A stretch of 32,000 nt of DNA from Thermosulfurimonas dismutans. GTDB lineage: Bacteria > Desulfobacterota > Thermodesulfobacteria > Thermodesulfobacteriales > Thermodesulfobacteriaceae. The stretch is from contig NZ_LWLG01000004.1 of assembly GCF_001652585.1 (NCBI RefSeq), forward strand, positions 83,464 to 115,463. The letters run 5' to 3'. The notes beneath the pieces are model-generated. The model ran no database searches, was not told the origin of the DNA, and was given only the letters and a program-made list of their open reading frames with translations. The first letter of the stretch is position 1. Each line of letters begins with the position of its first letter. The translations under genes were made by a program, and so were the position numbers. Positions 1 to 19,361 of the stretch are shown in pieces.

Positions 1-760
1 CATCTCCTGGGTCGGTCAAAAACTTTATAAAAAATTCAGGGAGCTTTTGCGGAAATCTTGCAGGATGAGGTTTTACACCTACTATTTTACAACACCTTAA
101 ATATTGCGAATTACTTTCAGTATTTGGTATCTCAAGTAGGTTAGAAGGGATTGCTCCTCCCTTATTTTCAGAAAAGCGTTTACTTATGTTGTGTCCGGAA
201 GGCCTTTTTTTGGGAGAATAATATTTTTCACTATTCTGAAGAAGAATTTTCATTCTTTCAGAATAAGGAACTAGTACTTTAGTAACATTTGCTTTGGGAA
301 AATCGGATTTTGATAACCACCATATAGTATTAACAGCATCTTTAACACGAATTTTGCGTTTGTTGACCCATTCTATAGGAGATGGAAGTTTAGATGGATT
401 ATACCAAAAAAATTCTTCTGCTAAATTCCATCCCTGTTCATCGCAAAGTCTTATAAGAAGTCTATAGTTATAAAGTGAACGTACAGGTCTCCCTTTAAGA
501 TAAACTCCTCCGAGGTCAAGTACAAAACTACCTGTTTTTTTTAATACTCTCTTTACTTCAATGGTAAAATTTAAAAGCCAATCTATATATTCATTTTGAT
601 CTACATTGCCGTAATCTTTTTGACGTTGTAATGGAAATGGAGGTGAAGTTATTACAAGATCTATCGATTCTTCTGGTAGGAATTTAAGTAAACTCAAAGC
701 ATCTCCTACATAAGCTTCCCCTAAACGCGTTTTATACAACAATTTGAACGAAGATTTCAT
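1..760 (-). CDS. DNA methyltransferase, beta-class (motif IV before motif I), probably N4-cytosine specific. Partial: the 3' end lies left of the window.
   Basis: Not in the supplied ORF track because it runs off the edge. Hand translation of the - strand from ATG 760-758 gives 253 uninterrupted codons: MKSSFKLLYKTRLGEAYVGDALSLLKFLPEESIDLVITSPPFPLQRQKDYGNVDQNEYIDWLL...VKPHPARFPQKLPEFFIKFLTDPGD. DLVITSPPF is the catalytic (S/D)PP(F/Y) motif. FLTDPGD at the window edge looks like the start of the AdoMet-binding motif I. The SPPF form is typical of m4C enzymes. The start overlaps the stop of the upstream gene (ATGA at 757-760). Confidence 0.85.
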   Translation of the reverse strand, partial: MKSSFKLLYKTRLGEAYVGDALSLLKFLPEESIDLVITSPPFPLQRQKDYGNVDQNEYIDWLLNFTIEVKRVLKKTGSFVLDLGGVYLKGRPVRSLYNYRLLIRLCDEQGWNLAEEFFWYNPSKLPSPIEWVNKRKIRVKDAVNTIWWLSKSDFPKANVTKVLVPYSERMKILLQNSEKYYSPKKRPSGHNISKRFSENKGGAIPSNLLEIPNTESNSQYLRCCKIVGVKPHPARFPQKLPEFFIKFLTDPGD

Positions 761-2226
761 AAATTCTCCTCTAATCTCCAAATCCAGCTTGACATTATTT
801 TCCAAAATACAGTCACAGCAAAATATACCTCTTTATCTTTCATCTTAATTTGTTCCATTCCATTGATATATCTCTGGGGATCCTGCATACCAATAATATA
901 AGCAACCCATTTCCGAGCTTCTTCATCAGTCAAAAGATCTAACATTTCTTCGAGTCTAAATTTTCCTGTCTGGCTTAATGCCCATGCTATTCCTGCTCTT
1001 TCTAATTCATTACTTTCTGAAAATTTTTTTATTATTTCAAAAGTAAATTGTCGAGCAAGTTTACTTAAAGCCCTAGCAGCTTCAATTTGTATATTTTTTT
1101 CAGTGGCATTAAAAGCTTCAATGAGTGCATCTATAGCTCTTTTGTTGCTCAGTTCTCCAAGAGCCCAAGCCGCTCCAGCACGTATTTCTGCATCTTGCTT
1201 CTTATCTAAAAGAATTTCTATTAACATTTGGCAAGAAGCATCATTATTAATTTCTCCTAATATTATCACAGCTTCTAATCTGCATTCTAAAGAATCATTT
1301 GTTAAGCATTGTTTAATAAATTCATATCCAATATCATTTCCTTGTCGAAATAGACTTGCGGCTGCTTCAAGTTTTATAAGGAAATGTTCATATTGATCTT
1401 TAAGTTTCTTAACAAGAAGATCAGTAATCTCGGAAGAATGAAAAAAAGCAAGGGCTTTTATAGCAGCATATTTATTAGTTAATAATGAACTAGAGAGCCA
1501 CTTTATAAAATCTTCTTCTGAAAATAGCCTCTCACATGGCAAAGTTGAGGTTACAGGAACTACAGAAGCTATGATCTGATTTTTAGTAATCTTTTCACCT
1601 TCTTTGACCAAAGGCTTCAATCTTTTGTTTTGCTTCCAAAGTTTTAAAGGTATAATTCTTCCGTTACTTTCTTTTCGATATTTCAACCGATCAGACTCAA
1701 TTGATATAACAGTCCCGGCTGCCGAAGCAATACTTGCCGGCCATTGTATTCTCATCTCAAAACCTTCTTCTGCTCCTTTTGGTTGGGTTAAAATGGTAAG
1801 ATTGTTTTGGTGGGCTAATCGTAAATCTCTAACAGACACATATTGAATAGGACCGTCTATTTCCCAAGATAATGGATTATTTCCTATTTGTTTGCATGCA
1901 ACAAATGCAACAAAATCGTCATCTTTTAAGCCATAATCCCATTTCCGATTTTGATTAGATTCAGAATGAGACATAGAAATTTCAAGTTTACTTTTTGCTC
2001 TACATTCAATACATCTTCCGCATTTTATACAAAGCAAATCAGGAACTCTAATGCGTTTAATTTTTATCTTTTTCCAAATTTTAAAGCTCATTGATCCTCG
2101 TTCTAATTCAATAGGCTTATGTTCTAACTTTTTTAAATGATCAAAGATAGCTATGGTTCCTGTTGCGCCAAGAGAAATTTTTTTTAAAAAACTCTCATCA
2201 GATTTAAATGCCTTTCTATTCGCCAT
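757..2226 (-). CDS. 489-aa protein with an N-terminal Cys-cluster/nuclease-like domain and C-terminal HEAT (PBS-lyase type) repeats. Candidate endonuclease or effector partner of the methyltransferase.
   Basis: Track ORF. The N-terminus has RVPDLLCIKCGRCIECRAKSK, which reads as PD...ExK-like residues interleaved with a CX2CX2CX2C cluster. The C-terminal half has repeated HEAT_2-like units (AEIRAGAAWALGELSNKRAIDALIEAF, IQIEAARALSKLA, ERAGIAWALSQTG). It is AT-rich like the methyltransferase and its stop overlaps the methyltransferase start by 4 nt. Confidence 0.7.
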   Translation of the reverse strand: MANRKAFKSDESFLKKISLGATGTIAIFDHLKKLEHKPIELERGSMSFKIWKKIKIKRIRVPDLLCIKCGRCIECRAKSKLEISMSHSESNQNRKWDYGLKDDDFVAFVACKQIGNNPLSWEIDGPIQYVSVRDLRLAHQNNLTILTQPKGAEEGFEMRIQWPASIASAAGTVISIESDRLKYRKESNGRIIPLKLWKQNKRLKPLVKEGEKITKNQIIASVVPVTSTLPCERLFSEEDFIKWLSSSLLTNKYAAIKALAFFHSSEITDLLVKKLKDQYEHFLIKLEAAASLFRQGNDIGYEFIKQCLTNDSLECRLEAVIILGEINNDASCQMLIEILLDKKQDAEIRAGAAWALGELSNKRAIDALIEAFNATEKNIQIEAARALSKLARQFTFEIIKKFSESNELERAGIAWALSQTGKFRLEEMLDLLTDEEARKWVAYIIGMQDPQRYINGMEQIKMKDKEVYFAVTVFWKIMSSWIWRLEENL

Positions 2227-2274
2227 CTTATGATACTCCTTTTTTAGTACGCATTCTCAATAAGATGCGAGTTT

Positions 2275-2910
2275 TTAGTACTTCTTGATCTTCTGGCACA
2301 CCACGCCCACGATTTCGTGCTCGTCGGTCAATTCGATTTCCGGGTATTTTGGATTCAGGGGGCGGAGGATCCGCTTGTCGCCGTAAACCTTGAGTTGCCT
2401 CAGCACGGCCTCGCCCCTGCCGTTGCACGCCACCACGTAGCTCCCGGAGATGGGCCTGCGGGTGGGGTCCACCACAATGATGTCCTCCTCCGTGAACTCG
2501 GGCTCCATGGAGTCGTCGTTGACTCTCAGGGCGAAGGCTCGCGGGCTCGCAGGGATCACCTCCACCCAGTCCCAGTGCTCCTCAGAGGCGCGGTCGGCCA
2601 CCTTGAGGCCGTGGGAAGAGAGCTCTGTAGCTCCCCAGGTTTTGATCCAGCTCCAGGGGACCACCGGCACCTTCTCAACCCTCCTCACCTCAAGCCCCGC
2701 GGCCTCGGCAACCTCCTCAAAGGGCACCCCGAGGCCCAGGGCCAGCTTCTTCAGCGTTTCCACCTTGGGCTTTCGCTCGCCACGCTCAAGGAGCCGGATG
2801 TACTTCTCCGAGAGCCCGCTCCGCTTCGCGAGCTGGTTTATGGAGAGCCCCGCCTCCTCCCGCTTCCTGCGCACCCATTCGCCGAAGCTCACAGCCACAC
2901 CTCCTGACAT
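2275..2910 (-). CDS. CI/LexA-like repressor (XRE helix-turn-helix plus S24 peptidase autocleavage domain)
   Basis: The N-terminus LSINQLAKRSGLSEKYIRLLERGERKP is an XRE HTH. The C-terminus has ALRVNDDSMEPEF (catalytic Ser) and VLRQLKVYG (Lys), the S24 dyad. It is divergent from a Cro-like gene. Confidence 0.9.
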   Translation of the reverse strand: MSGGVAVSFGEWVRRKREEAGLSINQLAKRSGLSEKYIRLLERGERKPKVETLKKLALGLGVPFEEVAEAAGLEVRRVEKVPVVPWSWIKTWGATELSSHGLKVADRASEEHWDWVEVIPASPRAFALRVNDDSMEPEFTEEDIIVVDPTRRPISGSYVVACNGRGEAVLRQLKVYGDKRILRPLNPKYPEIELTDEHEIVGVVCQKIKKY

Positions 2911-2934
2911 TTGTCCTATCCAAAAACTTTTCTC

Positions 2935-2963
2935 TTGACAATTTCGGACTTTTGTCCGATAAT
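2935..2963 (+). promoter_or_regulatory. Sigma70-type promoter P1: TTGACA (2935-2940), 17-nt spacer, GATAAT (2958-2963), with an operator in the spacer
   Basis: Consensus -35 and near-consensus -10 read directly. The predicted start site falls at about 2970, which is the ATG of the Cro-like gene, suggesting a leaderless mRNA. Confidence 0.55.
2944..2959. promoter_or_regulatory. Operator O1, palindrome TCGGAC-TTTT-GTCCGA
   Basis: Perfect 6-bp inverted arms inside the P1 spacer. The same 16-mer family recurs at 3177, 8656 and 8921. Confidence 0.6.
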
Positions 2964-2969
2964 AAAACC

Positions 2970-3206
2970 ATGTCCACCGTTCACTTTAATCCGGAGGTCC
3001 TGAGGAGGCTAAGGGAGGAGATGGGGCTCACCCGCGCCGAGCTTGAGGCCAGAAGCGGCGTGGACCGGGACACCATCTACGCCTGGGAGAGTGGCCGAAG
3101 GACGCCCTCGGCCCGGAGGCTGGCCCAGGTCGCCCAGGCCCTCGGCGCAAGGCTCGACGATTTTTTTGGCCCGTGTTCGGACTTTTGTCCGCAAAAAGAT
3201 GGCTAG
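2970..3206 (+). CDS. Cro-like XRE-family HTH regulator
   Basis: MSTVHFNPEVLRRLREEMGLTRAELEARSGVDRDTIYAWESGRRTPSARRLAQVAQALG is a classic HTH_3 pattern. The track starts it at TTG 2952, but that lies inside the promoter, so ATG 2970 is preferred. Confidence 0.8.
   Translation: MSTVHFNPEVLRRLREEMGLTRAELEARSGVDRDTIYAWESGRRTPSARRLAQVAQALGARLDDFFGPCSDFCPQKDG
3177..3192. promoter_or_regulatory. Operator-like palindrome O2, TCGGAC-TTTT-GTCCGc
   Basis: 11 of 12 arm positions match O1. It sits 6 nt upstream of the repO-like ATG (3199), which has no Shine-Dalgarno sequence. Confidence 0.5.
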
Positions 3207-4071
3207 CCCCCAGGTGGAAAACGGCTACACCAGGATCGCGAACGAGCTCCTGGAGGCCCTCTGCCGGGCCAGGCTCGGGAGCCGGGAGCTCAAGGTAGTG
3301 CTGGCGGTGGTGAGGCTCACATACGGCTTTTTGCGCAAAGAAAACACCATCTCCCTGGGAAAGCTTGCGGAAATGACGGGGTTGAGAAGAGAGAGGCTCT
3401 CAGAAGTGGTCAAAGCCCTTGAGCGGAAAAATGTCCTGCGGGTCAGCAAGGAAAATGGCCGGCTGATCCTGGGACTGCAAAAAGACTACTCCAAGTGGAC
3501 GGGAGGGGTGTCCCAAAAACGGGGTACCCCAAAATTGGGACTGTCCCAAAAAAGGGTGTCCCAAAAACGGGGAACAGGGTGTCCCAATTTTGGGGAACAG
3601 GGTGTCCCAAAAAAGGGGAACACCCACACCCCTCAATCCCTTGAGTCTCAAGCGTTTCACGGCCCCCTAAAGAAAATATATAAAGAAAACTTTAAAGAAA
3701 CATCATCTATCTACAGAGAGGACGACTTCAAAGAAGTGATCTCCAAGTGGGAGGAGGTCTTCGGGGAGGCGTTTCCCCTTGAGAGGGCGCCGGAGAGCGT
3801 GAGGGCGGCGGACTTCATGCTTTACCTTCACGAGGCCGGGAGGCTCCCCGCGGTGAAGCGCCCCTCGGCCTACCTGAGAAAGCTTGCCGCGAGCGAGCTT
3901 GAGCCTTTCCCGAGCCTCGCCGAGCGGCGGGCCGCGGCCCGGGACGCAGAGGAGCGGATGCGCGAGCTCAACCGCCAACAGCTCGCCAAGCTCTACGCCC
4001 GCATGATGGCCGAGGGCTGGCCGGTCGAGGTCCCCGAGGAGCTCAGGCCCCTTGTGGCCCAAACCCAATAG
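3199..4071 (+). CDS. Phage replication protein O-like initiator
   Basis: MASPQVENGYTRIANELLEALCRARLGSRELKVVLAVVRLTYGFLRKENTISLGKLAEMTGL matches the Phage_rep_O N-terminal winged-helix pattern. A low-complexity linker is encoded by the iteron DNA. The track ORF begins upstream at 3043, and the internal Met at 3199 is chosen instead. Confidence 0.8.
   Translation: MASPQVENGYTRIANELLEALCRARLGSRELKVVLAVVRLTYGFLRKENTISLGKLAEMTGLRRERLSEVVKALERKNVLRVSKENGRLILGLQKDYSKWTGGVSQKRGTPKLGLSQKRVSQKRGTGCPNFGEQGVPKKGNTHTPQSLESQAFHGPLKKIYKENFKETSSIYREDDFKEVISKWEEVFGEAFPLERAPESVRAADFMLYLHEAGRLPAVKRPSAYLRKLAASELEPFPSLAERRAAARDAEERMRELNRQQLAKLYARMMAEGWPVEVPEELRPLVAQTQ
3505..3714. repeat. Candidate replication origin: 5-6 iterons (core TGTCCCAAAAA; the last three are tandem 22-23 bp units GGGTGTCCCAAWWWWGGGGAACA) followed by an AT-rich stretch (3668-3714)
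   Basis: TGTCCC cores at 3509, 3542, 3557, 3580 and 3603, plus a variant TACCCCAAAATTGGGA at 3525. Downstream is taaagaaaatatataaagaaaactttaaagaaacatcatc. The architecture mirrors lambda ori inside gene O. Confidence 0.6.
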
Positions 4072-4105
4072 GGGTTAAGTGAAAATTTTCACAAAGGGGG
4101 TAAGC

Positions 4106-4300
4106 ATGGTGGAGCACGAGATCAAAAAGCTCATGGCGGAGTTCGGGCCGGAGGCTGTGCTCAGCGCCGTCTCCGAGGCCCTCTCCCGCTGGGTGAGGGT
4201 GACCGGCAGGTGTCTTCTGACCGGGCGCAGGCTTGCCCACGAGAAGATCTGCGGCTACTGCCGCCGGTGCCCGGTGAAGCCCCTTGAGAGGAGGGCCTGA
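4106..4300 (+). CDS. Small hypothetical protein (64 aa) with a C-terminal CxxCxxC cluster
   Basis: GGGGG Shine-Dalgarno 6 nt before ATG 4106. The stop overlaps the rusA start. Contains EKICGYCRRCP. Confidence 0.5.
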   Translation: MVEHEIKKLMAEFGPEAVLSAVSEALSRWVRVTGRCLLTGRRLAHEKICGYCRRCPVKPLERRA

Positions 4301-4791
4301 TGCTTGCGGTCTTCGTGCGAGGGGTGCCCAGGCCCCAGGGGCGGCCGCGGATCGTGCGCTTCGCGAACGGGAAGGCCGGGCTCAAGGACCCGGAGGCCAG
4401 CCGGGACTGGAAGAACTACGTGCGGATGTGCGTGGCCGAGAGGGTGGCCGAGCCCCTCTCCGGGCCGGTGGCCCTGGAGCTCTGGTTCTACCTTCCAGTG
4501 CCGAAAAGTTTCTCAAGGAAAAAGCGTCTTGCGGCCCTTTCCGGGGAGATCCTACCGGCCAAAAAGCCCGACCTCGACAACCTGGTCAAGGCGGTGCTCG
4601 ACGCCATCCTGGGGGTGGCCGTGCTCGACGACCGGCAGATCGTGGAGCTCCGGGCTGGAAAGCTCTACGGGGCCGTGCCCGGGGTGGAAATCGTCGTAAA
4701 GGAGCCCGGGGAGTCCAGCTCAAAATCCCTTGAAAGGAGGAACGGATGCCGAGCTACACCCACGAGTTTGCTATCCGCTGCGTGGCTCTGA
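4300..4791 (+). CDS. rusA: RusA-family Holliday junction resolvase with a long C-terminal extension
   Basis: GRPRIV...LELWFYLPVPKS...KKPDLDNLVKAVLDAILGVAVLDDRQIVEL carries the RusA catalytic Asp motifs. Confidence 0.85.
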   Translation: MLAVFVRGVPRPQGRPRIVRFANGKAGLKDPEASRDWKNYVRMCVAERVAEPLSGPVALELWFYLPVPKSFSRKKRLAALSGEILPAKKPDLDNLVKAVLDAILGVAVLDDRQIVELRAGKLYGAVPGVEIVVKEPGESSSKSLERRNGCRATPTSLLSAAWL

Positions 4792-4976
4792 AGGAAAAGA
4801 GCGACCAGAACGTAGTGGAGGTCAAGCTTGAGATGGTGGTGCGGGACACGGAGGACCTCTCCTTCATCATGGACCTGGTGCGCCTCAAGCAGTTGCCCCT
4901 GGTCACGGTGAGCTTCCACTCGCCGCAACAGAGGCTTCCCCTGGAGGGAAAGGTTGAGTCTCGCCCTGCTAATTAG
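4746..4976 (+). CDS. Hypothetical protein (76 aa)
   Basis: Strong Shine-Dalgarno (GAAAGGAGGAACGG-ATG). No recognisable motif. Confidence 0.5.
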   Translation: MPSYTHEFAIRCVALKEKSDQNVVEVKLEMVVRDTEDLSFIMDLVRLKQLPLVTVSFHSPQQRLPLEGKVESRPAN

Positions 4977-5565
4977 CCTCGCCCTCCTTGCGGCGGCCCC
5001 GGCCCTGGCCGAGGACCCGGTGTCCTTCATCGTGGCCCGGAGCCCGGAGCTCTCCGAGCTTTCAAGCTTCAACCGGAGCCGGCTCTCCAACCTCACGGTC
5101 AAGCTCCGGGGCACGGTAAAGCAGGGCCAGGAGACGCTCTCCGGCCTCACGGCGGAGGAGAGGGCCCGGGTCGGCTACGACCTCAGGCTCATCGCCGAGC
5201 TCCCGCTTTTCTCGCCCAAGGAGCGCCTGGAGATGAGGCTCAGGGAGCTCAGGCTCAGGCGGAGGGTGCGCCAGGAGGCCGCTAGAGCTGTGGCCCGCTA
5301 CCGGAGCCTCAAAAAGACCGTGGCCAGGAGGCAGGCCCTGGTCGCCGCCGTCCGGGAGGAGTGCCTCTGGCTCAAGCGCAGGGTGGAGGCCGGGCTTGAG
5401 CCCTCGGAGCGGGTCATCTCCTGCGTGAAGGAGCTTGAGGGCCAGAAGGAGAAGCTCGAGACGCTCCGGGAGGAGCTCTCCGAGGCCCTTGAGACCGTGC
5501 TCTCAATGGTGGGGCCGGGGGACAGGGAGCGCCTCAAGGAGATCCTGGATGCGGAGGATCGTTAG
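4954..5565 (+). CDS. Secreted coiled-coil protein with a signal peptide
   Basis: TTG start preceded by GGAGGG. The N-terminus LALLISLALLAAAPALA-EDP looks like a signal peptide with an AxA cleavage site. The rest is Arg/Glu/Leu-rich heptad-like sequence. Confidence 0.55.
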   Translation: MSLALLISLALLAAAPALAEDPVSFIVARSPELSELSSFNRSRLSNLTVKLRGTVKQGQETLSGLTAEERARVGYDLRLIAELPLFSPKERLEMRLRELRLRRRVRQEAARAVARYRSLKKTVARRQALVAAVREECLWLKRRVEAGLEPSERVISCVKELEGQKEKLETLREELSEALETVLSMVGPGDRERLKEILDAEDR

Positions 5566-6184
5566 CTCGTTTCAGAGGATCGGCCGGAGGTTCTACGGCA
5601 CGGTCTCGGTTAAGGCCTTCGGCCGCAGGGTGGATCACTTCCGGCTCCGGGCCGGGATGAGCGTGCTCATCGAGGGCGGGCCGCTTTCCGGGAAAACGGC
5701 CTTCCTGCGGCGCCTGGCCTCTCAGCTCGCCGAGCTCCGGGAGCCCGTAATCTTCATTGATGCCACTTCCCCAGTGACCAAGTGGCTCTCCGAGGTCACG
5801 CCCCCGGTGCCCCTGAGCGCGAGGAAGGCCCTCTCCTGGAGGCTTGCGAACCTGCCGGAGCGGTTCTACCTCCTTCTCGACAACGCCGAACGGGTGGCCG
5901 ACGGCCAGAAGCTGGAGGTGGTGCTGGAGCTCCTGGCCAGGGCCCGCACCGCGGTGGTGGCCGGGCGATCCTACTCCTCCCTCCACCCAAGGCTCCAGGC
6001 CCGCCTGCGTGAGGCCAAGGTGGTCTCCCTGGGTTGCGGGGCCGACACCTTCGACGCCACCTACGTGCTCGTAGCCGTGCTCATCATCTTGGTGGCGCTC
6101 TCCGGGATGCACCACCTGGTGCTCCTGGCCGCGGCCGTGCGCTACCTCTTCCAGGGGATCAGGATCGGGGGCCGAAGGATATGA
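5549..6184 (+). CDS. P-loop ATPase with a C-terminal transmembrane anchor
   Basis: Walker A is IEGGPLSGKTAFL and Walker B-like is FYLLLDNAE. The C-terminal hydrophobic helix is VLVAVLIILVALSGMHHLVLLAAAV. Internal ATG 5549 has an AAGGAGA Shine-Dalgarno, and the track ORF starts earlier at 5435. Confidence 0.6.
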   Translation: MRRIVSSFQRIGRRFYGTVSVKAFGRRVDHFRLRAGMSVLIEGGPLSGKTAFLRRLASQLAELREPVIFIDATSPVTKWLSEVTPPVPLSARKALSWRLANLPERFYLLLDNAERVADGQKLEVVLELLARARTAVVAGRSYSSLHPRLQARLREAKVVSLGCGADTFDATYVLVAVLIILVALSGMHHLVLLAAAVRYLFQGIRIGGRRI

Positions 6185-6777
6185 CCTGGCCGAGCCACAT
6201 CCTCATGGGGATCGCGCTTGCCAAGGGCTTCGACCTTTCGCTTCCCTGGTGCGTGGCCGGGAGCCTGTTTCCGGATCTTGCCGAGATGCTTGCGAGGCGC
6301 ATCGTGGTCCGGGGGAAAGCGGTCTTCGTCGGCCTCCCCCAGATCGCCCACCGCACCTACACCCACTCTCTGCTCTTCGCCGGGCTTTGCCTCCTTGCAG
6401 GCTGGGGAATCTTCCCGATCCGGAGCTTCTTCGCCGGGGTGCTCTTTGGGCACCTGCTTCTCGACGCCCTCACCGTGATGGGCGTTCCGGTGGTTGACGG
6501 GAGGCACCGCAGGGTTACCCTTTTCGGAGGGAAGATCCGCACGGGGTCGCTCGCCGAACTCGTGGCGGTGCTGGCCCTCGCGTTCACCACCTACGCCGTG
6601 GCCCCAGCCGTGAAGGTCGGTGGCCTTGAGGACCTCTACCAGCAGGGGGTGATAGACAGGTATGAGTACGAAAAGAGAAAGAAGGCCCTTTTCGATCTTC
6701 TTCTTTGGCGCCACTCTGGCCCTCCTCCTTCTCGGCACCTTCCTCCCTCTGTGGAGCGCCTACTCGAAGAGCCTTGA
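6181..6777 (+). CDS. DUF457/YdjM-type membrane-bound metal-dependent hydrolase fused to a SHOCT domain
   Basis: MTWPSHILMG, FPDL, HRTYTHSLLF and GHLLLDALTVMGVP are YdjM-family signatures. LEDLYQQGVIDRYEYEKRKKALF matches SHOCT. ATGA overlap with the upstream ATPase gene. Confidence 0.7.
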   Translation: MTWPSHILMGIALAKGFDLSLPWCVAGSLFPDLAEMLARRIVVRGKAVFVGLPQIAHRTYTHSLLFAGLCLLAGWGIFPIRSFFAGVLFGHLLLDALTVMGVPVVDGRHRRVTLFGGKIRTGSLAELVAVLALAFTTYAVAPAVKVGGLEDLYQQGVIDRYEYEKRKKALFDLLLWRHSGPPPSRHLPPSVERLLEEP

Positions 6778-7201
6778 GGCCCGGGTGGTTAAGGTTTACG
6801 ACGGGGACACGGTAACGGTTCTGCTGGGTGGGCGGCGCGAGAGGGTCCGTCTCATCGGGATAGACTGCCCGGAGCTCCGTCAAAGGCCCTGGGGAAAGCG
6901 CGCCAGGGACTTTCTGAGGCGGCTCGTCCTGCACCGCACCGTGCGCCTGGAGCTGGATGTTGATCCCTGGGATCGCTACGGGCGCCTCCTGGCCTATGTG
7001 TGGCTTGACGGCGAGCTCGTGAACGAGACCCTGGTCAGGGAGGGGCTCTGCCTGATCTACACCGTGCCGCCCAACGTGAAGCATGCGGAGAGGTTCCGGG
7101 AGGCCCAGAGGTGGGCCAGGGAGCACGGCCGGGGCTTCTGGGCCGAGGGCGGGCTCTCGGAAACGCCCTACCAGTGGCGCAGGCGCCACCGCAGGCACTA
7201 G
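6662..7201 (+). CDS. Membrane-anchored staphylococcal-nuclease (SNase/thermonuclease) homologue
   Basis: N-terminal TM helix FSIFFFGATLALLLLGTFLPLW. Then VVKVYDGDTVTV...RVRLIGIDCPE...DRYGRLLAYVWLDGELVNETLVREGL, the SNase fold signature. Confidence 0.85.
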   Translation: MSTKRERRPFSIFFFGATLALLLLGTFLPLWSAYSKSLEARVVKVYDGDTVTVLLGGRRERVRLIGIDCPELRQRPWGKRARDFLRRLVLHRTVRLELDVDPWDRYGRLLAYVWLDGELVNETLVREGLCLIYTVPPNVKHAERFREAQRWAREHGRGFWAEGGLSETPYQWRRRHRRH

Positions 7202-7545
7202 CCTCCGCCTTCCATCCCCCACCCACCCGCCCTTCCTGCGGCCCTTGCGGGCCGGGGGCCTCGCCCCGCCTAAGCCGGGGGGCGGGCCTCGGCCCCACCG
7301 GGCGATCCGGCCCGTCCGGGTGGGCTCGCCCGCACCTGGGGTCCGGCCCGAAAAAGAAATCTAACCCACCGAAAATGCGCCTCTAAACGGCCCATATTTG
7401 GCCTCTAAGAGGATTTTTTTGGCCAATAGTATCGAACATATCGGGGCGAGAAAATCGATTCTGGGGCGAATCTGAGCGGATTTTTCACCGGGCTTGTCCT
7501 GGGACCACCTAACGGCTAGGGCCACCTAACCGGGTCATGATTTGA

Positions 7546-8640
7546 GTTGAGTTTCTGGCTCGCCACAGCCTCCCCCGCCACCGGCGCCCCCCTCCCCCGA
7601 AGTGCTCGGCCCCCTCCCCCCGCCGCGCCGTCGGCCTCGCCCCCGCTCCAGGGGGAGGGGGCCTGCGCTGTCTTTGAGGCTCGGTGCCTCCGGTGCCGTG
7701 GGAAAGGCTGGAAGCGTCCTGCGGTGGGAAAAGCCCGTGGAATAGAAACCTTCCAGCCTTTCCCCCTCTTTCAGTTGTAGCCCTCCGGCCCCTTATGCGG
7801 CGCAAGGCCTCCGGCCCCTGACGGGGCCTCCGCAAGCTCGCTCCGGGGCTTTGCCCCTCCGCTCGGCCTTGCCCCGCGGGGCCTCCGGGCTGTTCCAAAA
7901 GTGCGGGGTTCGGCTGGGGAAAAAGGCTTTTGGGTTTTTTTGGCCTGGGGGCCTTGGGGCTCTGTGCCTCCGGGGCCTGTGGGTCCGGCCCTTCCGCCTG
8001 CGGTGGGGCCGGCCCGTTAAAAAAACTTTTGGGGGTGTGGCTATGGGCGGCGTTTCTCCCTTGGCTTGCCTTCCGGTTTTTTCGGCGGTTTCGGTCTCGG
8101 CGGTGGCCTTCGGGGGCGGGGCGGTGCTCCGGCGCTCGTCCCGGTCGCTCTCCGGGTTCGTGGCCTGGTGCTGGTTCCCGTCCTGGGGGCTTGCCCGGCG
8201 GTGGGCCTCCTTCTGGGCCGGGCGGCTTCCGGCCGCGTGCCGGGGCGTGGTGGTGCGCCGGGCGCCGTTTCCGGCCTCGGGGTGGGTGGTTTCCGTGCCG
8301 GTGCTCCCTCGGGTGGGGGCGTGCCGTGGTTAGGTTGCCGGGGTGGGCTTCGGCGGCCGGGGGCCGGGTGCTCCGGGTTCTCGGCCCCGCGGTGACGGTC
8401 TGGTTCCCCTCCGGGTTTCTGGCCCAGGCCTTCGCCCTCTCCTGCGGGCTCTCCCCGGCTCGGGCCTTCCGGGCGCCCTCCGGGGGCTTTGCCGTGGTGG
8501 TGCCGGCCTCGGCCCTCTCCTCCGTCCGGCCCCGGTGCGCCTTCTGCGCCCGCCTAGGCCGCTGTGCCGTGGCCTCCCCCGGCCCGGGGTGCGGCTTCCG
8601 CCCCTTCCGGCGCCCGCCCCGCCAGGGCTCCCTCTTCAAA
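7546..8640. other. GC-rich tract with the + strand almost devoid of A. Probably non-coding.
   Basis: Hand count: between 8043 and 8623 the only A residues are at 8043, 8332, 8395, 8426 and 8556. Positions 8044-8331 form a 288-nt run with no A. All track ORFs here overlap in several frames on both strands. Confidence 0.8.
7700..7764. repeat. Perfect 15-bp inverted repeat GGGAAAGGCTGGAAG / CTTCCAGCCTTTCCC with a 35-nt loop
   Basis: Arms at 7700-7714 and 7750-7764, read directly and exactly complementary. Confidence 0.75.
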
Positions 8641-8648
8641 TTGGGGGC

Positions 8649-8677
8649 TTGACATTCGGACAAATGTCCGATAAAAT
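8649..8677 (+). promoter_or_regulatory. Sigma70-type promoter P2: TTGACA (8649-8654), 17-nt spacer, TAAAAT (8672-8677), with an operator in the spacer
   Basis: Read directly. It is followed by a GGGGGTGG Shine-Dalgarno (8693-8700) and ATG 8705. Confidence 0.55.
8656..8671. promoter_or_regulatory. Operator O3, TCGGAC-AAAT-GTCCGA
   Basis: Perfect arms identical to O1, inside the P2 spacer. Confidence 0.6.
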
Positions 8678-8704
8678 GAAGCCAATAAGAGAGGGGGTGG
8701 GACG

Positions 8705-8917
8705 ATGAGAAAAGAAACAAAAAGACTTTTAAAACAGGCTTACAAGGCGGCTATAAGAGCAAGCGAAGAAATGGGAGAGAACTTTTTGAATCCGTGGTTT
8801 TTCTTGGGATACATGGAGTTCAGCGGCTTGAAGGATCTGTCCGGAGACGAGGTTTTTCGCATAATGCGCTGGCTTTGGACCTGGGACAAGAACAGAAACT
8901 CAAAATTTTTTGCCTAG
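8705..8917 (+). CDS. Hypothetical protein (70 aa), first gene of the P2 operon
   Basis: Good promoter and Shine-Dalgarno context. Trp/Phe-rich, noticeably lower GC than its surroundings, no known motif. Confidence 0.55.
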   Translation: MRKETKRLLKQAYKAAIRASEEMGENFLNPWFFLGYMEFSGLKDLSGDEVFRIMRWLWTWDKNRNSKFFA

Positions 8918-8920
8918 TGT

Positions 8921-8936
8921 TCGGACAAAAGTCCGA
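8921..8936. promoter_or_regulatory. Operator-like palindrome O4, TCGGAC-AAAA-GTCCGA
   Basis: Perfect arms. It lies between the stop at 8917 and the AAGGAGG Shine-Dalgarno of the next small gene. Confidence 0.5.
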
Positions 8937-8950
8937 AAAAGGAGGAAAGA

Positions 8951-9124
8951 ATGTTTGGAAAAGACGAGAGCTTCGAGGCCTTTCTGAGGAACGAGTACTG
9001 GGCCTTTGGGGGCTACGAGCGCCCCGGCGAGTGGGAGGAGGAGGAGGAGGAGTCCTCGGCGTTTTGGGCGGACGACGATCCCTTCGACCGCTACGCCGAG
9101 AGCCTCGATCTCCTGGCCCCGTGA
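8951..9124 (+). CDS. Small acidic protein (57 aa), below the ORF-track size cutoff
   Basis: Hand translation: MFGKDESFEAFLRNEYWAFGGYERPGEWEEEEEESSAFWADDDPFDRYAESLDLLAP, then a stop. Strong Shine-Dalgarno (AAAGGAGGAAAGA-ATG). The overlapping 194-aa track ORF in another frame looks spurious. Confidence 0.5.
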   Translation: MFGKDESFEAFLRNEYWAFGGYERPGEWEEEEEESSAFWADDDPFDRYAESLDLLAP

Positions 9125-9155
9125 AAAAAACAGCCCGGCCCCTCGGCGGGCCGGG
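9124..9155 (-). terminator. Intrinsic-terminator-like hairpin for - strand transcription: 8-bp GC stem CCCGGCCC/GGGCCGGG, followed on the - strand by T7
   Basis: Stem at 9134-9141 and 9148-9155, loop ctcggc. The A7 run at 9124-9130 reads as U7 after the hairpin on the - strand. There is no U-run on the + strand side. Confidence 0.35.
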
Positions 9156-9169
9156 GAAAGGAGGGAGAG

Positions 9170-9601
9170 ATGAAGCAAGCCAAGCAATCTTTGAGGGTGA
9201 AGCAGACGGACGAGTTCGTGAACCCGGTGACCGGCGAGGTGATCTCGCCTTCGGGCCTGGAGCAGATGCTCCTCAACATGCTCTACGGCCTCTCGAACGT
9301 CCAGAAGTTCTACCTGGTGAACGAGCTCTTGAAGGGGCTCAAGCGCGGGCGGGATCTCCTGCGCAAGAAGCTCCTTGAGGAGCTCGACAACCGGCCAAGG
9401 CAGGAGGGGGAGCTTGTGGCCTACGTGCGGGAGCGGGAGCAGAGGCGGTTTGACGCCAAGGCTTTCGAGCGCGAGCATCCTGAGCTTTACCGAGCCTACC
9501 TTCGGCCGGTGCGCCAAAAAGTCGTAGTGGTGGAGAAGCCGGACCTGGTCTTTGAGATCTCTCGGCCGGAGCTTTCCGCCGCCGAGGACATGCCGCTTTA
9601 G
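9170..9601 (+). CDS. Hypothetical phage-type early protein (143 aa, coiled-coil)
   Basis: Shine-Dalgarno GGAGGGAGAG-ATG. No diagnostic motif. Confidence 0.6.
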   Translation: MKQAKQSLRVKQTDEFVNPVTGEVISPSGLEQMLLNMLYGLSNVQKFYLVNELLKGLKRGRDLLRKKLLEELDNRPRQEGELVAYVREREQRRFDAKAFEREHPELYRAYLRPVRQKVVVVEKPDLVFEISRPELSAAEDMPL

Positions 9602-9611
9602 GAGGTGGAGC

Positions 9612-10124
9612 ATGAAGAGGCTCGGCGAACTCAAGCCCATCAAGGACTTTCGGGAGGAGGAGAGGCAGGCAAGGCTTCCCCAGGGATTCAAGCCCCAGGA
9701 GCAGATCGCCTTGGGCCAGGCCGCGGCCGACGCCCTCATGGACGTGGTGCGCCGGCAGGGGCTCTCCAAGAAGATAGAGGGAAAGGAGTACCTCTTTTAC
9801 GAGGCCTGGCTCACCCTAGGACGGTTTTTCAAATTAACGCCCAAGGTAGAGTGGTCAAAGCCCATTTGGCACGAGGGGCGGGTAATTGCTTGGGAGGCCC
9901 GGGCCGTGGTGGTGGATGAGGAGGGCCGGGAGGTGGCCGCGGCCGAGGCCATGTGCGGGAAGGACGAGAAGGGCTGGGCCAAGCGCCCGGCCTATGCCCT
10001 GCGCTCCATGGCCCAGACCCGGGCCTGCGCCAAGGCCCTGCGCTCCGTGCTTTCCTGGATCGTGGTCTTGGCGGGCTTTGCACCCACCCCTGCAGAGGAA
10101 ATCGAGAATGGAGCTGACGCCTGA
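9612..10124 (+). CDS. Hypothetical protein (170 aa), possibly a Rad52/Sak-like single-strand annealing protein
   Basis: Strong Shine-Dalgarno (TAGGAGGTGGAGC-ATG). The C-terminal SMAQTRACAKALRSVL resembles the A-x-T-x-A-x-K/R-A-L-R helix of phage annealing proteins. The function call is weak. Confidence 0.55.
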   Translation: MKRLGELKPIKDFREEERQARLPQGFKPQEQIALGQAAADALMDVVRRQGLSKKIEGKEYLFYEAWLTLGRFFKLTPKVEWSKPIWHEGRVIAWEARAVVVDEEGREVAAAEAMCGKDEKGWAKRPAYALRSMAQTRACAKALRSVLSWIVVLAGFAPTPAEEIENGADA

Positions 10125-10380
10125 GACCCTCCGAGCGCTGATCCAGGAGGCCGTGCGGGAGGCCCTGGCTGAGGCCGGGGCCTCCCAGAGGTGGCTCACC
10201 CTGCGCGAGGCTTGCAGGTACGCCCGGGTCTCAAAAAACACCCTCCGGAGGCTCATTGACGAGGGCTACATCACCGCCAAGCGGCTCGACGGAAAGTGGA
10301 TAGTTGACCGGCTCTCCATCGACGCCTTCTACGGCTCTGAGGCGGGCTTTATTGCCAGGGTGGTGGAAAGGATGCTATGA
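10108..10380 (+). CDS. xis: Excisionase-family (MerR-like HTH_17) DNA-binding protein
   Basis: WLTLREACRYARVSKNTLRRLIDEGYITAKRLDGKWIVDRLSIDAF. It lies immediately upstream of the integrase and overlaps it (ATGA). Confidence 0.75.
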   Translation: MELTPETLRALIQEAVREALAEAGASQRWLTLREACRYARVSKNTLRRLIDEGYITAKRLDGKWIVDRLSIDAFYGSEAGFIARVVERML

Positions 10381-11487: not shown

Positions 11488-11529
11488 GGATTAGGAATCC
11501 CGTGCTCTATCCGCCTGAGCTACGGGGGC
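11488..11529 (-). pseudogene. Truncated tRNA-Arg(CCT): 5' half only (acceptor 5' strand, D-arm, anticodon stem 5' strand, loop, and 3 nt of the 3' stem strand)
   Basis: The - strand reads GCCCCCG-TA-GCTC-AGGCGGATA-GAGC-A-CGGGA-TTCCTAA-TCC. The tRNA-like sequence then stops: the next bases are GC where CG is expected, and there is no T-arm or acceptor 3' strand downstream. Confidence 0.6.
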
Positions 11530-11681: not shown

Positions 11682-11757
11682 GCCGGTGTAGCTCAGCAGG
11701 TAGAGCAGTGGATTCGTAATCCACAGGTCGGGGGTTCGAGTCCCCCCGCCGGCTCCA
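11682..11757 (+). tRNA. tRNA-Thr (anticodon CGT), CCA encoded
   Basis: GCCGGTG-TA-GCTC-AGCAGGTA-GAGC-A-GTGGA-TTCGTAA-TCCAC-AGGTC-GGGGG-TTCGAGT-CCCCC-CGCCGGC-T-CCA folds as a complete cloverleaf. Confidence 0.95.
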
Positions 11758-19354: not shown

Positions 19355-19361
19355 AGTTTTA

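What the first reader, a model, noticed from the sequence alone, without database searches (positions are those of the whole stretch)
1..2226. AT-rich restriction-modification-like pair: SPPF methyltransferase translationally coupled to a Cys-cluster plus HEAT-repeat protein
The 489-aa gene ends in an ATGA overlap with an unlisted beta-class (SPPF, probably m4C) methyltransferase. That arrangement is typical of a Type II R-M operon. The partner is atypical, however.
- Its N-terminus carries PD...ExK-like residues interleaved with a CX2CX2CX2C cluster (RVPDLLCIKCGRCIECRAK, about 1993-2043).
- Its C-terminal half (about 900-1330) consists of HEAT/PBS-lyase repeats.

HEAT-like repeats can act as DNA-binding scaffolds, as in AlkD-type glycosylases, but they are not a standard restriction endonuclease architecture. 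The module is far more AT-rich than both neighbours, consistent with horizontal acquisition, and it may continue to the left as a defence island.
Basis: partly seen in the sequence, partly recalled or inferred. Interest (0 to 1): 0.7.

Follow-up and report, generated by a model that had tools for sequence, protein, structure and literature searches.

The report
PvuII-type methylase with unrecognised HEAT-repeat nuclease partner
This is a horizontally acquired two-gene restriction-modification cassette: a close relative of the PvuII cytosine-N4 DNA methylase, paired with a 489-residue protein from a widespread family that no database recognises and that is very probably a new kind of restriction nuclease for the same DNA site.

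Summary
A 489-aa ORF (757-2226, minus strand) overlaps by ATGA a truncated beta-class SPPF methyltransferase, and both lie in a 31-35% GC block beside 60-69% GC DNA.

- **Methyltransferase:** an M.PvuII orthologue (PDB 1boo, E=1e-112), so it probably makes CAGm4CTG.
- **Partner protein:** a basic N-terminal alpha/beta domain, a barrel-sandwich-hybrid domain and an acidic HEAT solenoid. The N-terminal domain has no Pfam, NCBIfam, PADLOC or PDB sequence match.
- **Family conservation:** P62-D63...E74-x-(R/K)76-x-K78 is conserved across the family. The CX2CX2CX2C cluster is not.
- **Gene context, close clade:** 76 of 77 informative genomes, bacterial and archaeal, have an M.PvuII-like gene directly downstream.
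- **Gene context, divergent clades:** the family gene sits where an R gene sits, behind a C.PvuII-type controller gene with C-boxes. A methylase is divergent upstream in 68 of 68 loci with enough sequence.
- **No R.PvuII homologue** occurs in the window or in 90 related loci of the close clade. Four divergent loci carry both, which is the main caveat.

The parts
1..760 (-). 5' part (253 codons) of a beta-class N4-cytosine DNA methyltransferase gene, an M.PvuII orthologue; it continues beyond the left end of the window
   Evidence: Translation with the TSPPF motif. PF01555 E=1.9e-27. PADLOC MTase_II PDLC03323 E=1.4e-128. PDB 1boo M.PvuII E=1.1e-112 over residues 6-253. It is 70-77% identical to the methylases next to family members in L001, L003, L005 and L007.
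757..760 (-). ATGA overlap: the stop codon of the 489-aa gene overlaps the start codon of the methylase gene (translational coupling inferred)
   Evidence: Sequence read directly...GAGGAGAATTTATGAAATCT..., with GAGGAG 6 nt upstream of the ATG.
757..2226 (-). Gene for the 489-aa candidate restriction endonuclease (uncharacterised family: N-terminal nuclease-like domain, barrel-sandwich-hybrid domain and HEAT solenoid)
   Evidence: ORF. AF2 model with pLDDT 90.9 and pTM 0.86. Family found. Gene-context evidence.
1777..2199 (-). N-terminal basic alpha/beta domain (residues ~10-150), putative PD-(D/E)XK-type catalytic and DNA-binding domain
   Evidence: Secondary-structure order H10-33, E38-40, E64-66, E71-78, E83-87, E105-113 .... 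Invariant W51, R60, D63, E74, K78, S86, R94, W96 and D104. Net charge +11 here and +6.4 as the family mean. No Pfam, PDB or PADLOC sequence match.
1993..2043 (-). Motif P62-D63-x10-E74-x-R76-x-K78 (PDLLCIKCGRCIECRAK); contains the lineage-specific CX2CX2CX2C
   Evidence: D63, E74 and K78 are conserved in 84 of 84 sequences; position 76 is R in 77 and K in 7; G70 is 96% conserved. C66 is 98% conserved, C69 68%, C72 occurs in 1 of 84 and C75 in 9 of 84. D63 precedes strand 64-66, and E74/R76/K78 lie in strand 71-78.
1552..1761 (-). Middle beta domain (residues ~156-225) with a barrel-sandwich-hybrid (lipoyl/biotinyl-like) fold, preceded by the invariant loop K150-G-x-E-E-G-F-E157
   Evidence: Foldseek PDB hits at E~1.5e-3 to ~65-residue segments of RNA polymerase beta, and to the biotinyl domains of carboxylases. 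Weak RnfC_N barrel-sandwich-hybrid Pfam hit. K150, G155, E157 and W162 are invariant or nearly so.
766..1518 (-). C-terminal HEAT/PBS-lyase-type alpha-solenoid (residues 237-487), acidic
   Evidence: HEAT_2 E=1.6e-23 and HEAT_PBS E=2.6e-11. alphaRep PDB sequence hits. Foldseek hits to alphaRep, CpcE/F and armadillo proteins. Net charge -8 here and -12.2 as the family mean.
2227..2274 (-). 48-nt spacer between the stop of the CI-like repressor gene and the start of the 489-aa gene: an inverted repeat (2250-2269) and an AGGAG ribosome-binding site. The GC content changes abruptly here
   Evidence: Sequence. No sigma-70-like promoter and no minus-strand terminator were found by the scan; the hairpin has its T-run only on the plus strand. 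Composition.

Best explanation
The module is a self-contained Type II restriction-modification cassette. The truncated gene at 1-760 encodes an M.PvuII orthologue that most probably methylates the inner cytosine of CAGCTG at N4.

The 489-aa gene upstream encodes the cognate restriction endonuclease, from a family unrelated in sequence to R.PvuII. Its basic N-terminal alpha/beta domain is inferred to bind and cut unmethylated target DNA. The proposed active site is a metal-dependent PD-(D/E)XK-type site formed by D63, E74 and K78 (with R76).

The barrel-sandwich-hybrid domain and the acidic HEAT solenoid are inferred to act in oligomerisation, protein contacts or regulation, not as the DNA-binding surface.

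The two genes are translationally coupled by the ATGA overlap. They sit 48 nt downstream of, and on the same strand as, the CI-like repressor gene of an integrated phage-like element in a Thermosulfurimonas-like thermophile. They could therefore be expressed in the lysogen as a cargo defence gene pair.

**Shown:** the identity of the methylase, the conservation of the motif, the gene-context pattern and the domain architecture.
**Inferred:** nuclease activity, CAGCTG specificity, the roles of the accessory domains, and co-transcription with the repressor gene.
For: 1. **Methylase identity.** The methylase matches M.PvuII (1boo) at E=1.1e-112 over 248 residues, including the region between the catalytic and AdoMet motifs. 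M.PvuII makes CAGm4CTG (PMC2614495).
2. **Close clade.** 76 of the best 80 genome loci, covering many bacterial and archaeal phyla, have an M.PvuII-like gene (60-84% identical) directly downstream on the same strand. Three of the four exceptions are contig ends.
3. **No other conserved partner.** No other gene is conserved next to the pair. No R.PvuII homologue occurs in the window or in loci L001-L090.
4. **Divergent clades, controller gene.** In clades 25-35% identical to the window protein, the family gene is immediately preceded by an ~80-aa HTH gene of the C.PvuII group. The gene usually overlaps it. It carries the GLHRTY recognition helix, and a gene of this cluster is present in 67 of 80 loci (directly upstream on the same strand in 54). 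The core AGTC-TGTA-GAC lies upstream of 45 of 66 such genes. This matches the published C-box consensus GACT-N3-AGTC-TGTA-GACT-N3-AGTC of C-R operons (PMC2175313).
5. **Divergent clades, methylase.** All 68 such loci with at least 1.5 kb of upstream sequence carry a divergent methylase: 17 M.PvuII-like and 51 of an alpha-class ~600-aa type. This is the classical M<- ->C->R layout, with the family gene in the R position.
6. **Conserved residues.** P-D...E-x-(R/K)-x-K with a conserved hairpin glycine is invariant across 84 diverse members. In the high-confidence AF2 model these residues fall at the start of one strand and within the next, which is where PD-(D/E)XK nucleases place them (established knowledge of that superfamily).
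7. **Charge.** The N-terminal domain is basic with many invariant K/R.
8. **Distribution.** The cassette is AT-rich in a GC-richer genome. It is inserted into a haem operon in L001 and is occasionally found on viral contigs. This is a mobile distribution typical of R-M systems.
Against: - **Topology and motif deviate.** The usual helix between the ExK strand and the next core strand is missing in the model. The motif is ExRxK rather than ExK.
- **Co-occurrence with R.PvuII.** Four of the 80 divergent-clade loci (L126, L136, L146, L160) also carry an R.PvuII homologue in the same cluster. The family protein is therefore not simply a replacement for R.PvuII and could be an accessory.
- **Some members lack a partner.** Two family members lack an adjacent PF01555 methylase (L002, L008).
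- **No site-avoidance signal.** CAGCTG avoidance in the window is not distinctive: 2 observed against 2.0 expected under a Markov-4 model, rank 16 of 64 palindromes.
- **No biochemical data exist.**
Confidence: 0.7

Rival explanations
1. The 489-aa protein is not the restriction enzyme but an accessory or regulatory partner of CAGCTG-specific methylases. Examples would be a reader of methylation state, a protein that modulates the methylase, or a helper of a separate nuclease. On this view the window pair is an orphan methylase plus accessory, with no restriction activity of its own.
For: - It co-occurs with complete PvuII-type systems (M, C and an R.PvuII homologue) in L136/L160, and with R.PvuII homologues in L126 and L146.
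- No fold-level match to a nuclease was found.
- The acidic HEAT solenoid is typical of protein-protein interaction modules.
Against: - In more than 140 loci no other nuclease candidate is conserved next to the pair.
- C-protein and C-box control with an overlapping start is the signature of a gene that is toxic if expressed before the methylase (PMC2175313).
- In L126 the family gene has its own C gene, separate from the one serving the R.PvuII homologue.
- An invariant acidic/basic motif in a basic domain argues for catalysis rather than mere binding.
Confidence: 0.15
2. It is a restriction enzyme with a non-phosphodiesterase mechanism: a DNA glycosylase/lyase in the manner of R.PabI, or of HEAT-like-repeat glycosylases such as AlkD. 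The HEAT solenoid would wrap the DNA.
For: - HEAT repeats are present.
- No confirmed nuclease fold was found.
- Position 87 alternates between H and D and could be a catalytic or base-contacting residue.
Against: - The HEAT domain is acidic, with only two conserved basic positions.
- It matches PBS-lyase, alphaRep and armadillo scaffolds; no glycosylase appears among the top 50 structural hits.
- Family-invariant residues are concentrated in the N-terminal domain and form a PD...ExK-like pattern.
Confidence: 0.05
3. The pair is only part of a larger multi-gene defence system or island that continues to the left of the window. The 489-aa protein would work only with those unseen components.
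For: - The window cuts the methylase gene, so nothing to the left can be seen.
- Some relatives lie beside other defence genes: an SMC/AAA_15 ATPase in L005, a STAND-like NTPase in L003, Piwi in L002 and Abi_2 in L008.
Against: - Clustering of all flanking ORFs in 80+80 loci found no conserved third gene apart from the C gene.
- Flanks differ from locus to locus. In L001 the cassette sits inside a haem-biosynthesis operon.
Confidence: 0.05
4. The abrupt AT-rich/GC-rich junction at about 2270 is an assembly chimera. The cassette would then not belong to this genome or prophage at all.
For: - GC jumps from about 0.33 to about 0.61 within some 50 nt.
- The closest relatives of the 489-aa protein are in Methanophagales archaea and other vent or sediment lineages, not in the host lineage.
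- The exact protein is not on record elsewhere.
Against: - The junction falls exactly in an intergenic spacer. A stop codon lies on one side, and a ribosome-binding site and start codon lie on the other, on the same strand.
- R-M cassettes are commonly compositionally foreign.
- Either way, the nature of the cassette itself is unaffected.
Confidence: 0.05

Closest known systems
PvuII restriction-modification system (M.PvuII, C.PvuII, R.PvuII; Proteus vulgaris/hauseri plasmid pPvu1)
   Same: - The methylase is a clear orthologue: E=1e-112 against the 1boo chain.
- Divergent members of the partner family use the same M<- ->C->R layout, with HRTY-type C proteins and TGTA-spaced C-boxes.
- The predicted target is therefore the same, CAGCTG.
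   Different: - The gene in the R position is a 489-aa three-domain protein with no detectable similarity to the 157-aa R.PvuII (hhalign probability 0.2%; tblastn negative).
- In the window, and in the 76 close-clade loci with a downstream methylase, there is no C gene. The order there is R then M on one strand with overlapping or adjacent codons, not a divergent arrangement.
PD-(D/E)XK nuclease superfamily (for example archaeal Hjc, NucS/EndoMS, YraN and many Type II restriction enzymes)
   Same: - It has the pattern hydrophobic-P-D-h-h-h-x-x-x-G-x-x-h-E-h-(K/R). The D lies at the start of one beta strand and the E-x-(K/R) in the next strand of a hairpin, after a long N-terminal helix and a first strand.
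- The domain is basic.
- Weak BFVD Foldseek matches include two phage 'Holliday junction resolvases'.
   Different: - No significant sequence or Foldseek match to any member.
- Position +2 after E74 is mostly R, and a further invariant K lies at +4.
- No helix lies between the ExK strand and the next long strand in the model.
- Further invariant residues (S86, H/D87, R94, W96, D104, K150, E157, W162) have no counterpart that I can name.
PBS-lyase-type HEAT-repeat proteins (CpcE/CpcF, NblB, YibA, alphaRep designs)
   Same: The C-terminal 250 residues match HEAT_2 and HEAT_PBS, and match alphaRep and CpcE/F structures.
   Different: - Those proteins are stand-alone solenoids for protein or chromophore binding.
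- None of those named in the hits is described as carrying a nuclease-like domain or as linked to a methylase; that reading rests on their names and my own knowledge, because their gene contexts were not examined here.
- NCBIfam scores are far below the family cut-offs, for example NblB at 36 bits against a cut-off of 300.
AlkD/AlkC HEAT-like-repeat DNA glycosylases
   Same: Both are alpha-helical repeat proteins in a DNA-related context.
   Different: - The solenoid here is acidic.
- No AlkD-like hit appears among the top structural matches.
- The conserved residues lie outside the solenoid.
- That AlkD-type proteins use a basic concave surface is my own knowledge and was not tested here.

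Membership tests
Type II restriction-modification system | A DNA methyltransferase gene with the catalytic and AdoMet-binding motifs | tested here: met
   PF01555, TSPPF motif, M.PvuII orthologue. The C-terminal AdoMet motif lies outside the window but is present in the orthologues of related loci (FAGSNTTG).
Type II restriction-modification system | A separate gene adjacent to the methylase, conserved as a pair across unrelated genomes, in the position of the endonuclease gene | tested here: met
   76 of 77 informative close-clade loci. 68 of 68 divergent-clade loci with enough upstream sequence. In the divergent clades the gene lies in the R slot of a C-R operon with C-boxes.
Type II restriction-modification system | Site-specific cleavage of unmethylated DNA, and protection by the cognate methylation | not testable with these tools
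   This needs biochemistry or genetics. The site-avoidance statistic was uninformative.
PD-(D/E)XK nuclease superfamily | Conserved acidic and basic catalytic residues: D at the start of the second core strand and (D/E)-x-K in the third | tested here: met
   D63 100%, E74 100%, position 76 R or K 100%, K78 100% in 84 members at 25-54% identity.
PD-(D/E)XK nuclease superfamily | The alpha-beta-beta-beta-alpha-beta core fold, shown by a significant structural or profile match to known members | tested here: inconclusive
R.PvuII family of endonucleases | Sequence similarity to R.PvuII | tested here: not met
   hhalign probability 0.2%. tblastn of R.PvuII against the window and L001-L090 found nothing below E=3.5. 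As a positive control, PADLOC REase_II models recognise a true R.PvuII homologue (E=7e-77) but not the family protein.
M.PvuII-type N4-cytosine methyltransferases (CAGCTG) | High full-length similarity to M.PvuII, including the target-recognition region | tested here: met
   378 bits, E=1.1e-112, ungapped alignment of residues 6-253 to residues 7-254 of 1boo.
M.PvuII-type N4-cytosine methyltransferases (CAGCTG) | Methylation of CAGCTG to CAGm4CTG | not testable with these tools
   Inferred from orthology. The specificity of M.PvuII itself is taken from PMC2614495.
Fe-S or Zn Cys4 nuclease families (the reading suggested by CX2CX2CX2C) | Four cysteines conserved across the family | tested here: not met
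   C66 is conserved in 98% of 84 members and C69 in 68%, but C72 occurs in 1 of 84 and C75 in 9 of 84. Several homologues have no cysteine, or only one, in this stretch.
HEAT-like-repeat DNA glycosylases (AlkD/AlkC) | A basic concave solenoid surface that binds DNA, and structural similarity to AlkD | tested here: not met
   The solenoid's mean net charge is -12, with only K257 and R349 conserved as basic positions. The top 50 PDB structural hits are alphaRep, bilin-lyase, armadillo and importin proteins.

The most novel reading that the evidence does not exclude
The family is not a plain Type IIP enzyme but a regulated restriction nuclease. Its acidic HEAT solenoid would act as a built-in inhibitor or sensor, for example by masking the basic nuclease domain until a partner is bound, or by docking onto the methylase or onto a phage protein. 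Alternatively, it is an accessory effector that works alongside ordinary PvuII-type enzymes; this would explain why it sometimes co-resides with R.PvuII and has its own controller gene. Either reading would add a new functional layer to Type II R-M systems.
Probability: 0.15. Interest if true: 0.8.

Novelty: new variant of a known kind. Interest (0 to 1): 0.6.

Why it matters
If the 489-aa protein is the endonuclease, it defines a large and previously unrecognised restriction-enzyme family. The family has at least 422 clusters at 50% identity and occurs in at least 190 species-level genomes of bacteria and archaea.

- **Unusual architecture:** a nuclease-like domain joined to a barrel-sandwich-hybrid domain and a HEAT solenoid, which is not an architecture I know from characterised restriction enzymes.
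- **Invisible to current annotation:** Pfam, NCBIfam and PADLOC all label it only as a HEAT-repeat protein, so R-M and defence censuses currently count these loci as orphan methylases.
- **A case of partner replacement:** a homologous methylase, and even homologous controller circuitry, is paired with non-homologous nucleases. Rare loci carry both nucleases, which may capture the replacement of one restriction gene by another of the same specificity.
- **Practical value:** members from thermophiles could provide thermostable PvuII isoschizomers or enzymes with new cleavage positions.

Tried and rejected
- **Exact-sequence look-up** of the window protein to see the DNA left of the window: not on record.
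- **blastn against phage genomes:** no match for the cassette or for the adjoining phage-like element.
- **Sequence and profile searches of the N-terminal domain** against PDB, Pfam at E<=10 for 21 members, NCBIfam and PADLOC: nothing apart from a weak barrel-sandwich-hybrid hint.
- **Foldseek:** the PDB and BFVD searches gave no significant nuclease match. The full-length model returned only HEAT-type scaffolds.
- **hhalign of the family profile against R.PvuII,** to test whether it is a very diverged R.PvuII: no similarity.
- **CAGCTG avoidance in the window** as indirect evidence of specificity: 2 sites against 8.9 expected from base composition, but 2.0 expected under a Markov-4 model, and rank 16 of 64 palindromes. 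This is uninformative.
- **Search for the other attachment site** of the phage-like element, or a tRNA 3' half, inside 1-2300, to decide whether the cassette lies inside the element: none found.
- **Literature searches** for HEAT-repeat restriction enzymes: no relevant paper.
- **Rejected ideas:** a conserved Cys4 metal cluster; the HEAT solenoid as an AlkD-like DNA scaffold; a conserved third gene or a larger system.
Full report
**1. What is in the sequence**

The minus strand of window 1-2226 carries two genes. The first is a 489-aa ORF at 757-2226, with AGGAG 8 nt before its ATG. Its TGA stop overlaps, as ATGA (757-760), the ATG of a second ORF that runs off the left edge of the window. 253 codons of that ORF are visible, and GAGGAG lies 6 nt upstream of its start.

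GC content is 0.31-0.35 across 1-2000. It rises to about 0.6 within some 50 nt of position 2270 and stays at 0.59-0.74 up to about 11,400. It is 0.45-0.60 (mostly about 0.53) from there to the end of the window. The one correction is that the helical repeat region is larger than stated: residues 237-487, nt 766-1518.

**2. The methyltransferase**

- It contains TSPPF and matches PF01555 (E=1.9e-27).
- It matches one specific PADLOC Type II methylase model over its whole visible length (PDLC03323, E=1.4e-128).
- Against solved structures its only strong hit is M.PvuII (1boo): E=1.1e-112, residues 6-253 aligned to 7-254 without gaps.
- M.PvuII converts CAGCTG to CAGm4CTG (PMC2614495).

From this degree of similarity I infer the same specificity. 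The inference was not tested.

**3. The 489-aa protein**

Pfam, NCBIfam and PADLOC see only HEAT-type repeats in the C-terminal half. PDB sequence hits are to alphaRep designs in the same region. The N-terminal 235 residues have no hit in any library, even when 21 family members are scanned at E<=10.

An AlphaFold2 model built from 44 homologues is confident, with mean pLDDT 90.9 and pTM 0.86. It shows three parts.

- **N-terminal alpha/beta domain:** a long helix (10-33) followed by strands 38-40, 64-66, 71-78, 83-87, 105-113 and further elements.
- **Middle beta domain (about 156-225):** Foldseek relates it to the barrel-sandwich-hybrid pieces of RNA polymerase beta and to biotinyl domains (E~1.5e-3).
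- **Alpha-solenoid (237-487):** its best structural matches are alphaRep, bilin lyase CpcE/F, armadillo proteins and importins.

**4. Conservation**

I aligned 83 full-length representatives that are 25-54% identical to the window protein, giving 84 sequences in all.

- Invariant residues: W51, R60, D63, E74, K78, S86, R94, W96, D104, E157 and W162.
- P62 and G70 are 96% conserved. E42 is always acidic (E in 82, D in 2). Position 76 is always R or K.
- The conserved pattern is therefore h-P-D-h-h-C-x-x-x-G-x-R-h-E-h-(R/K)-x-K.
- D63 sits immediately before one strand of the model, and E74/R76/K78 sit in the next. This is where PD-(D/E)XK nucleases carry their catalytic D and (D/E)xK (established knowledge of that superfamily).

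C72 occurs in 1 of 84 sequences (the consensus is R), C75 in 9 of 84 and C69 in 57 of 84; only C66 is general.

The N-terminal domain is basic (family mean +6.4) with many invariant K/R. The solenoid is acidic (mean -12.2) with only two conserved basic positions. DNA binding and catalysis are therefore best assigned to the N-terminal part, not to the HEAT repeats.

**5. Fold assignment remains open**

Foldseek of the N-terminal model (pLDDT 85.9) found no PDB match to the first 150 residues among its top 50 hits. Against viral models it matched small proteins of 140-190 residues over about 160 columns (best E=7e-4). The only named ones were two 'Holliday junction resolvases', at E=0.09 and 0.25.

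**6. Gene context, close clade**

A scan of one genome per species found 190 relatives, and the best 80 were fetched. They come from Methanophagales, Thermococci, Chloroflexota, Nitrospirota, Planctomycetota, Verrucomicrobiota, Bacteroidota, Omnitrophota, cyanobacteria and others.

- All 80 carry HEAT-domain sequence directly downstream of the N-terminal domain. It is cut short in four of them: by the contig end in L048, L056 and L083, and truncated in L076.
- 76 have an M.PvuII-like gene (60-84% identical to a reference orthologue) directly downstream on the same strand.
- Three of the four exceptions stop at a contig end.
- Clustering all flanking ORFs gave no third conserved gene.
- R.PvuII has no homologue in the window or in loci L001-L090.
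- Individual look-ups agree. In L001 the cassette interrupts a haem-biosynthesis operon.
- Two members (L002, L008) have no adjacent PF01555 methylase.

**7. Gene context, divergent clades**

Most of the family is only 25-35% identical to the window protein. A metagenome scan seeded with those clades returned 80 loci, and the layout there differs.

- An HTH gene of about 80 aa lies immediately upstream on the same strand, usually overlapping the start. It is present in 67 of 80 loci by clustering and in 54 by strict adjacency.
- It is an HTH_3 protein with the GLHRTY(I/V)S motif.
- 45 of 66 such genes with enough upstream sequence are preceded by AGTC-TGTA-GAC, set within G-x-x-A-C-N4-AGTC-TGTA-GAC-N2-A-N2-GT.
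- This matches the published operator of the C.PvuII group: GACT-N3-AGTC-N4-GACT-N3-AGTC, with TGTA as the spacer for C proteins that have an HRTY recognition helix. Those C proteins are co-transcribed with the restriction gene to delay its expression (PMC2175313).
- Upstream and divergent lies a methylase in all 68 loci that have at least 1.5 kb of upstream sequence. It is M.PvuII-like in 17. In 51 it is an alpha-class ~600-aa enzyme with an N-terminal FAGSGMTG motif, a zinc ribbon and a later TDPPF motif.

The family gene thus occupies the R position of the classical M<- ->C->R arrangement.

**8. The caveat**

Four of these 80 loci also encode an R.PvuII homologue.

- L136 and L160 read M.PvuII<- ->C->R.PvuII(66% identical)->family gene.
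- L126 has a C->R.PvuII(72% identical) operon on one side of an alpha-class methylase and a C->family operon on the other side.
- L146 has a 35%-identical R.PvuII relative just upstream of the C gene.

This ties the alpha-class methylase to CAGCTG as well. It also shows that the family protein can coexist with a conventional PvuII nuclease.

Two readings are possible. Either these are two nucleases of the same specificity sharing one methylase, which could be snapshots of one R gene replacing another, or the family protein is an accessory. More than 140 other loci contain no alternative nuclease. In L126 the family gene has its own controller gene.

**9. Surroundings in the window**

To the right of the cassette lies an integrated phage-like element:

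- a CI-like S24/HTH repressor (2275-2910, same strand as the cassette, with its stop 48 nt from the cassette's start);
- a Cro-like HTH gene (2952-3206);
- a replication protein O gene with iterons;
- RusA;
- a tyrosine integrase (10377-11426).

A tRNA-Thr gene follows at 11682-11757. Host genes come after it, and their MutS is 76% identical to that of Thermosulfurimonas sp. F29.

No promoter-like site and no minus-strand terminator lie between the repressor gene and the cassette. Read-through from the repressor gene, as for lambda cI-rexAB (my own knowledge), is therefore possible but not shown.

I could not find the element's other end inside the window. Whether the cassette is cargo of the element remains open. 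The family does occur on two IMG/VR viral contigs, where it is directly followed on the same strand by a 328-aa ORF in the methylase position; I did not check the identity of that ORF.

**10. Comparison with known systems, and novelty**

The system works like a Type II R-M system of the PvuII specificity group. Membership of 'Type II R-M' is met for every feature that can be tested in silico. Membership of the R.PvuII family is tested and not met. Membership of the PD-(D/E)XK superfamily is met for the motif and inconclusive for the fold. The Cys4 and AlkD-like readings are tested and not met.

PADLOC's restriction-enzyme models recognise a true R.PvuII homologue but not this family. I found no paper describing a HEAT-repeat restriction enzyme. 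REBASE could not be consulted, so prior listing as a 'putative' enzyme cannot be excluded.

I rate this a new variant of a known kind. The logic of the system is ordinary. The nuclease family is unrecognised and architecturally unusual, and it is widespread. Interest is 0.6, and confidence that the 489-aa protein is the cognate endonuclease is 0.7.

Noticed in passing
window 2275-11426: An integrated phage-like element with GC 0.59-0.74, against about 0.53 for the host DNA to its right. It carries a CI-like S24/HTH repressor (2275-2910, minus strand), a Cro-like HTH gene (2952-3206), a Phage_rep_O gene (3193-4071), RusA (4300-4791) and a tyrosine integrase (10377-11426). It has no blastn match in the phage collection.
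   Followed up: partly
window 3502-3622: Four iteron-like direct repeats, (G)TGTCCCAAAAA(A/C)GGGG, spaced 23-48 nt apart inside the replication-protein-O gene. This resembles an origin embedded in the O gene, as in lambdoid phages.
   Followed up: no
window 2943-2958, 3176-3191 and 8655-8670: The 16-nt palindrome TTCGGACTTTTGTCCG occurs twice exactly, flanking the cro-like gene, and once as a variant. These are operator-like sites for the repressor/Cro switch.
   Followed up: no
window 11489-11529 (minus strand): This stretch reads like positions 1-41 of a tRNA (GCCCCCGTAGCTCAGGCGGATAGAGCACGGGATTCCTAATCC, anticodon CCT). It breaks off in the anticodon stem about 60 nt from the integrase stop, so it may be a remnant of the attachment site. 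Neither ARAGORN nor Rfam calls it, and no matching 3' half is present in the window.
   Followed up: partly
window 8001-8500: Extreme composition: GC 0.74 and AT skew -0.83. It lies inside a 403-aa minus-strand ORF (7509-8720) that has no Pfam match.
   Followed up: no
window 13799-15532: A single ORF that fuses PurD (GARS N, A and C domains) with PurE (AIR carboxylase).
   Followed up: no
window 19329-21947: MutS is 76% identical to that of Thermosulfurimonas sp. F29 and 74% to that of T. marina. The host is therefore a Thermosulfurimonas-like thermophile, whereas the closest relatives of the 489-aa protein (61-64% identity over the N-terminal domain) are in Methanophagales, Aerophobetes and Thermococci genomes.
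   Followed up: partly
L126 674-5467; L136 851-4260; L160 919-4328; L146 1236-5461: These loci carry an R.PvuII homologue and a HEAT-family gene around a single methylase. In L126 each of the two has its own C gene. They may be intermediates in the replacement of one restriction gene by another of the same specificity.
   Followed up: partly
L092-L165 (for example L108 804-2576, minus strand): An alpha-class DNA methylase of about 590-620 aa (FAGSGMTG ... zinc ribbon CPxC/CPxC ... TDPPF). Its best PADLOC hits are MTase_II PDLC03312 and PglXI. It partners the divergent family clades in 51 of the 68 loci with at least 1.5 kb upstream (54 of 80 overall), and in L126 it also partners an R.PvuII homologue. 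This suggests a second, unrelated CAGCTG methylase family.
   Followed up: partly
L003/L004 6001-6870: A natural 289-aa variant of the family protein (P0012) that lacks most of the HEAT domain but is still followed by the M.PvuII-like gene. 10 contigs carry it. In L001 the HEAT C-terminus is split off as a separate 92-aa ORF, from a frameshift or a sequencing error.
   Followed up: no
L002 8001-13437: A cyanobacterial family member without an adjacent PF01555 methylase. It lies next to a short Piwi-domain (pAgo-like) gene cluster.
   Followed up: no
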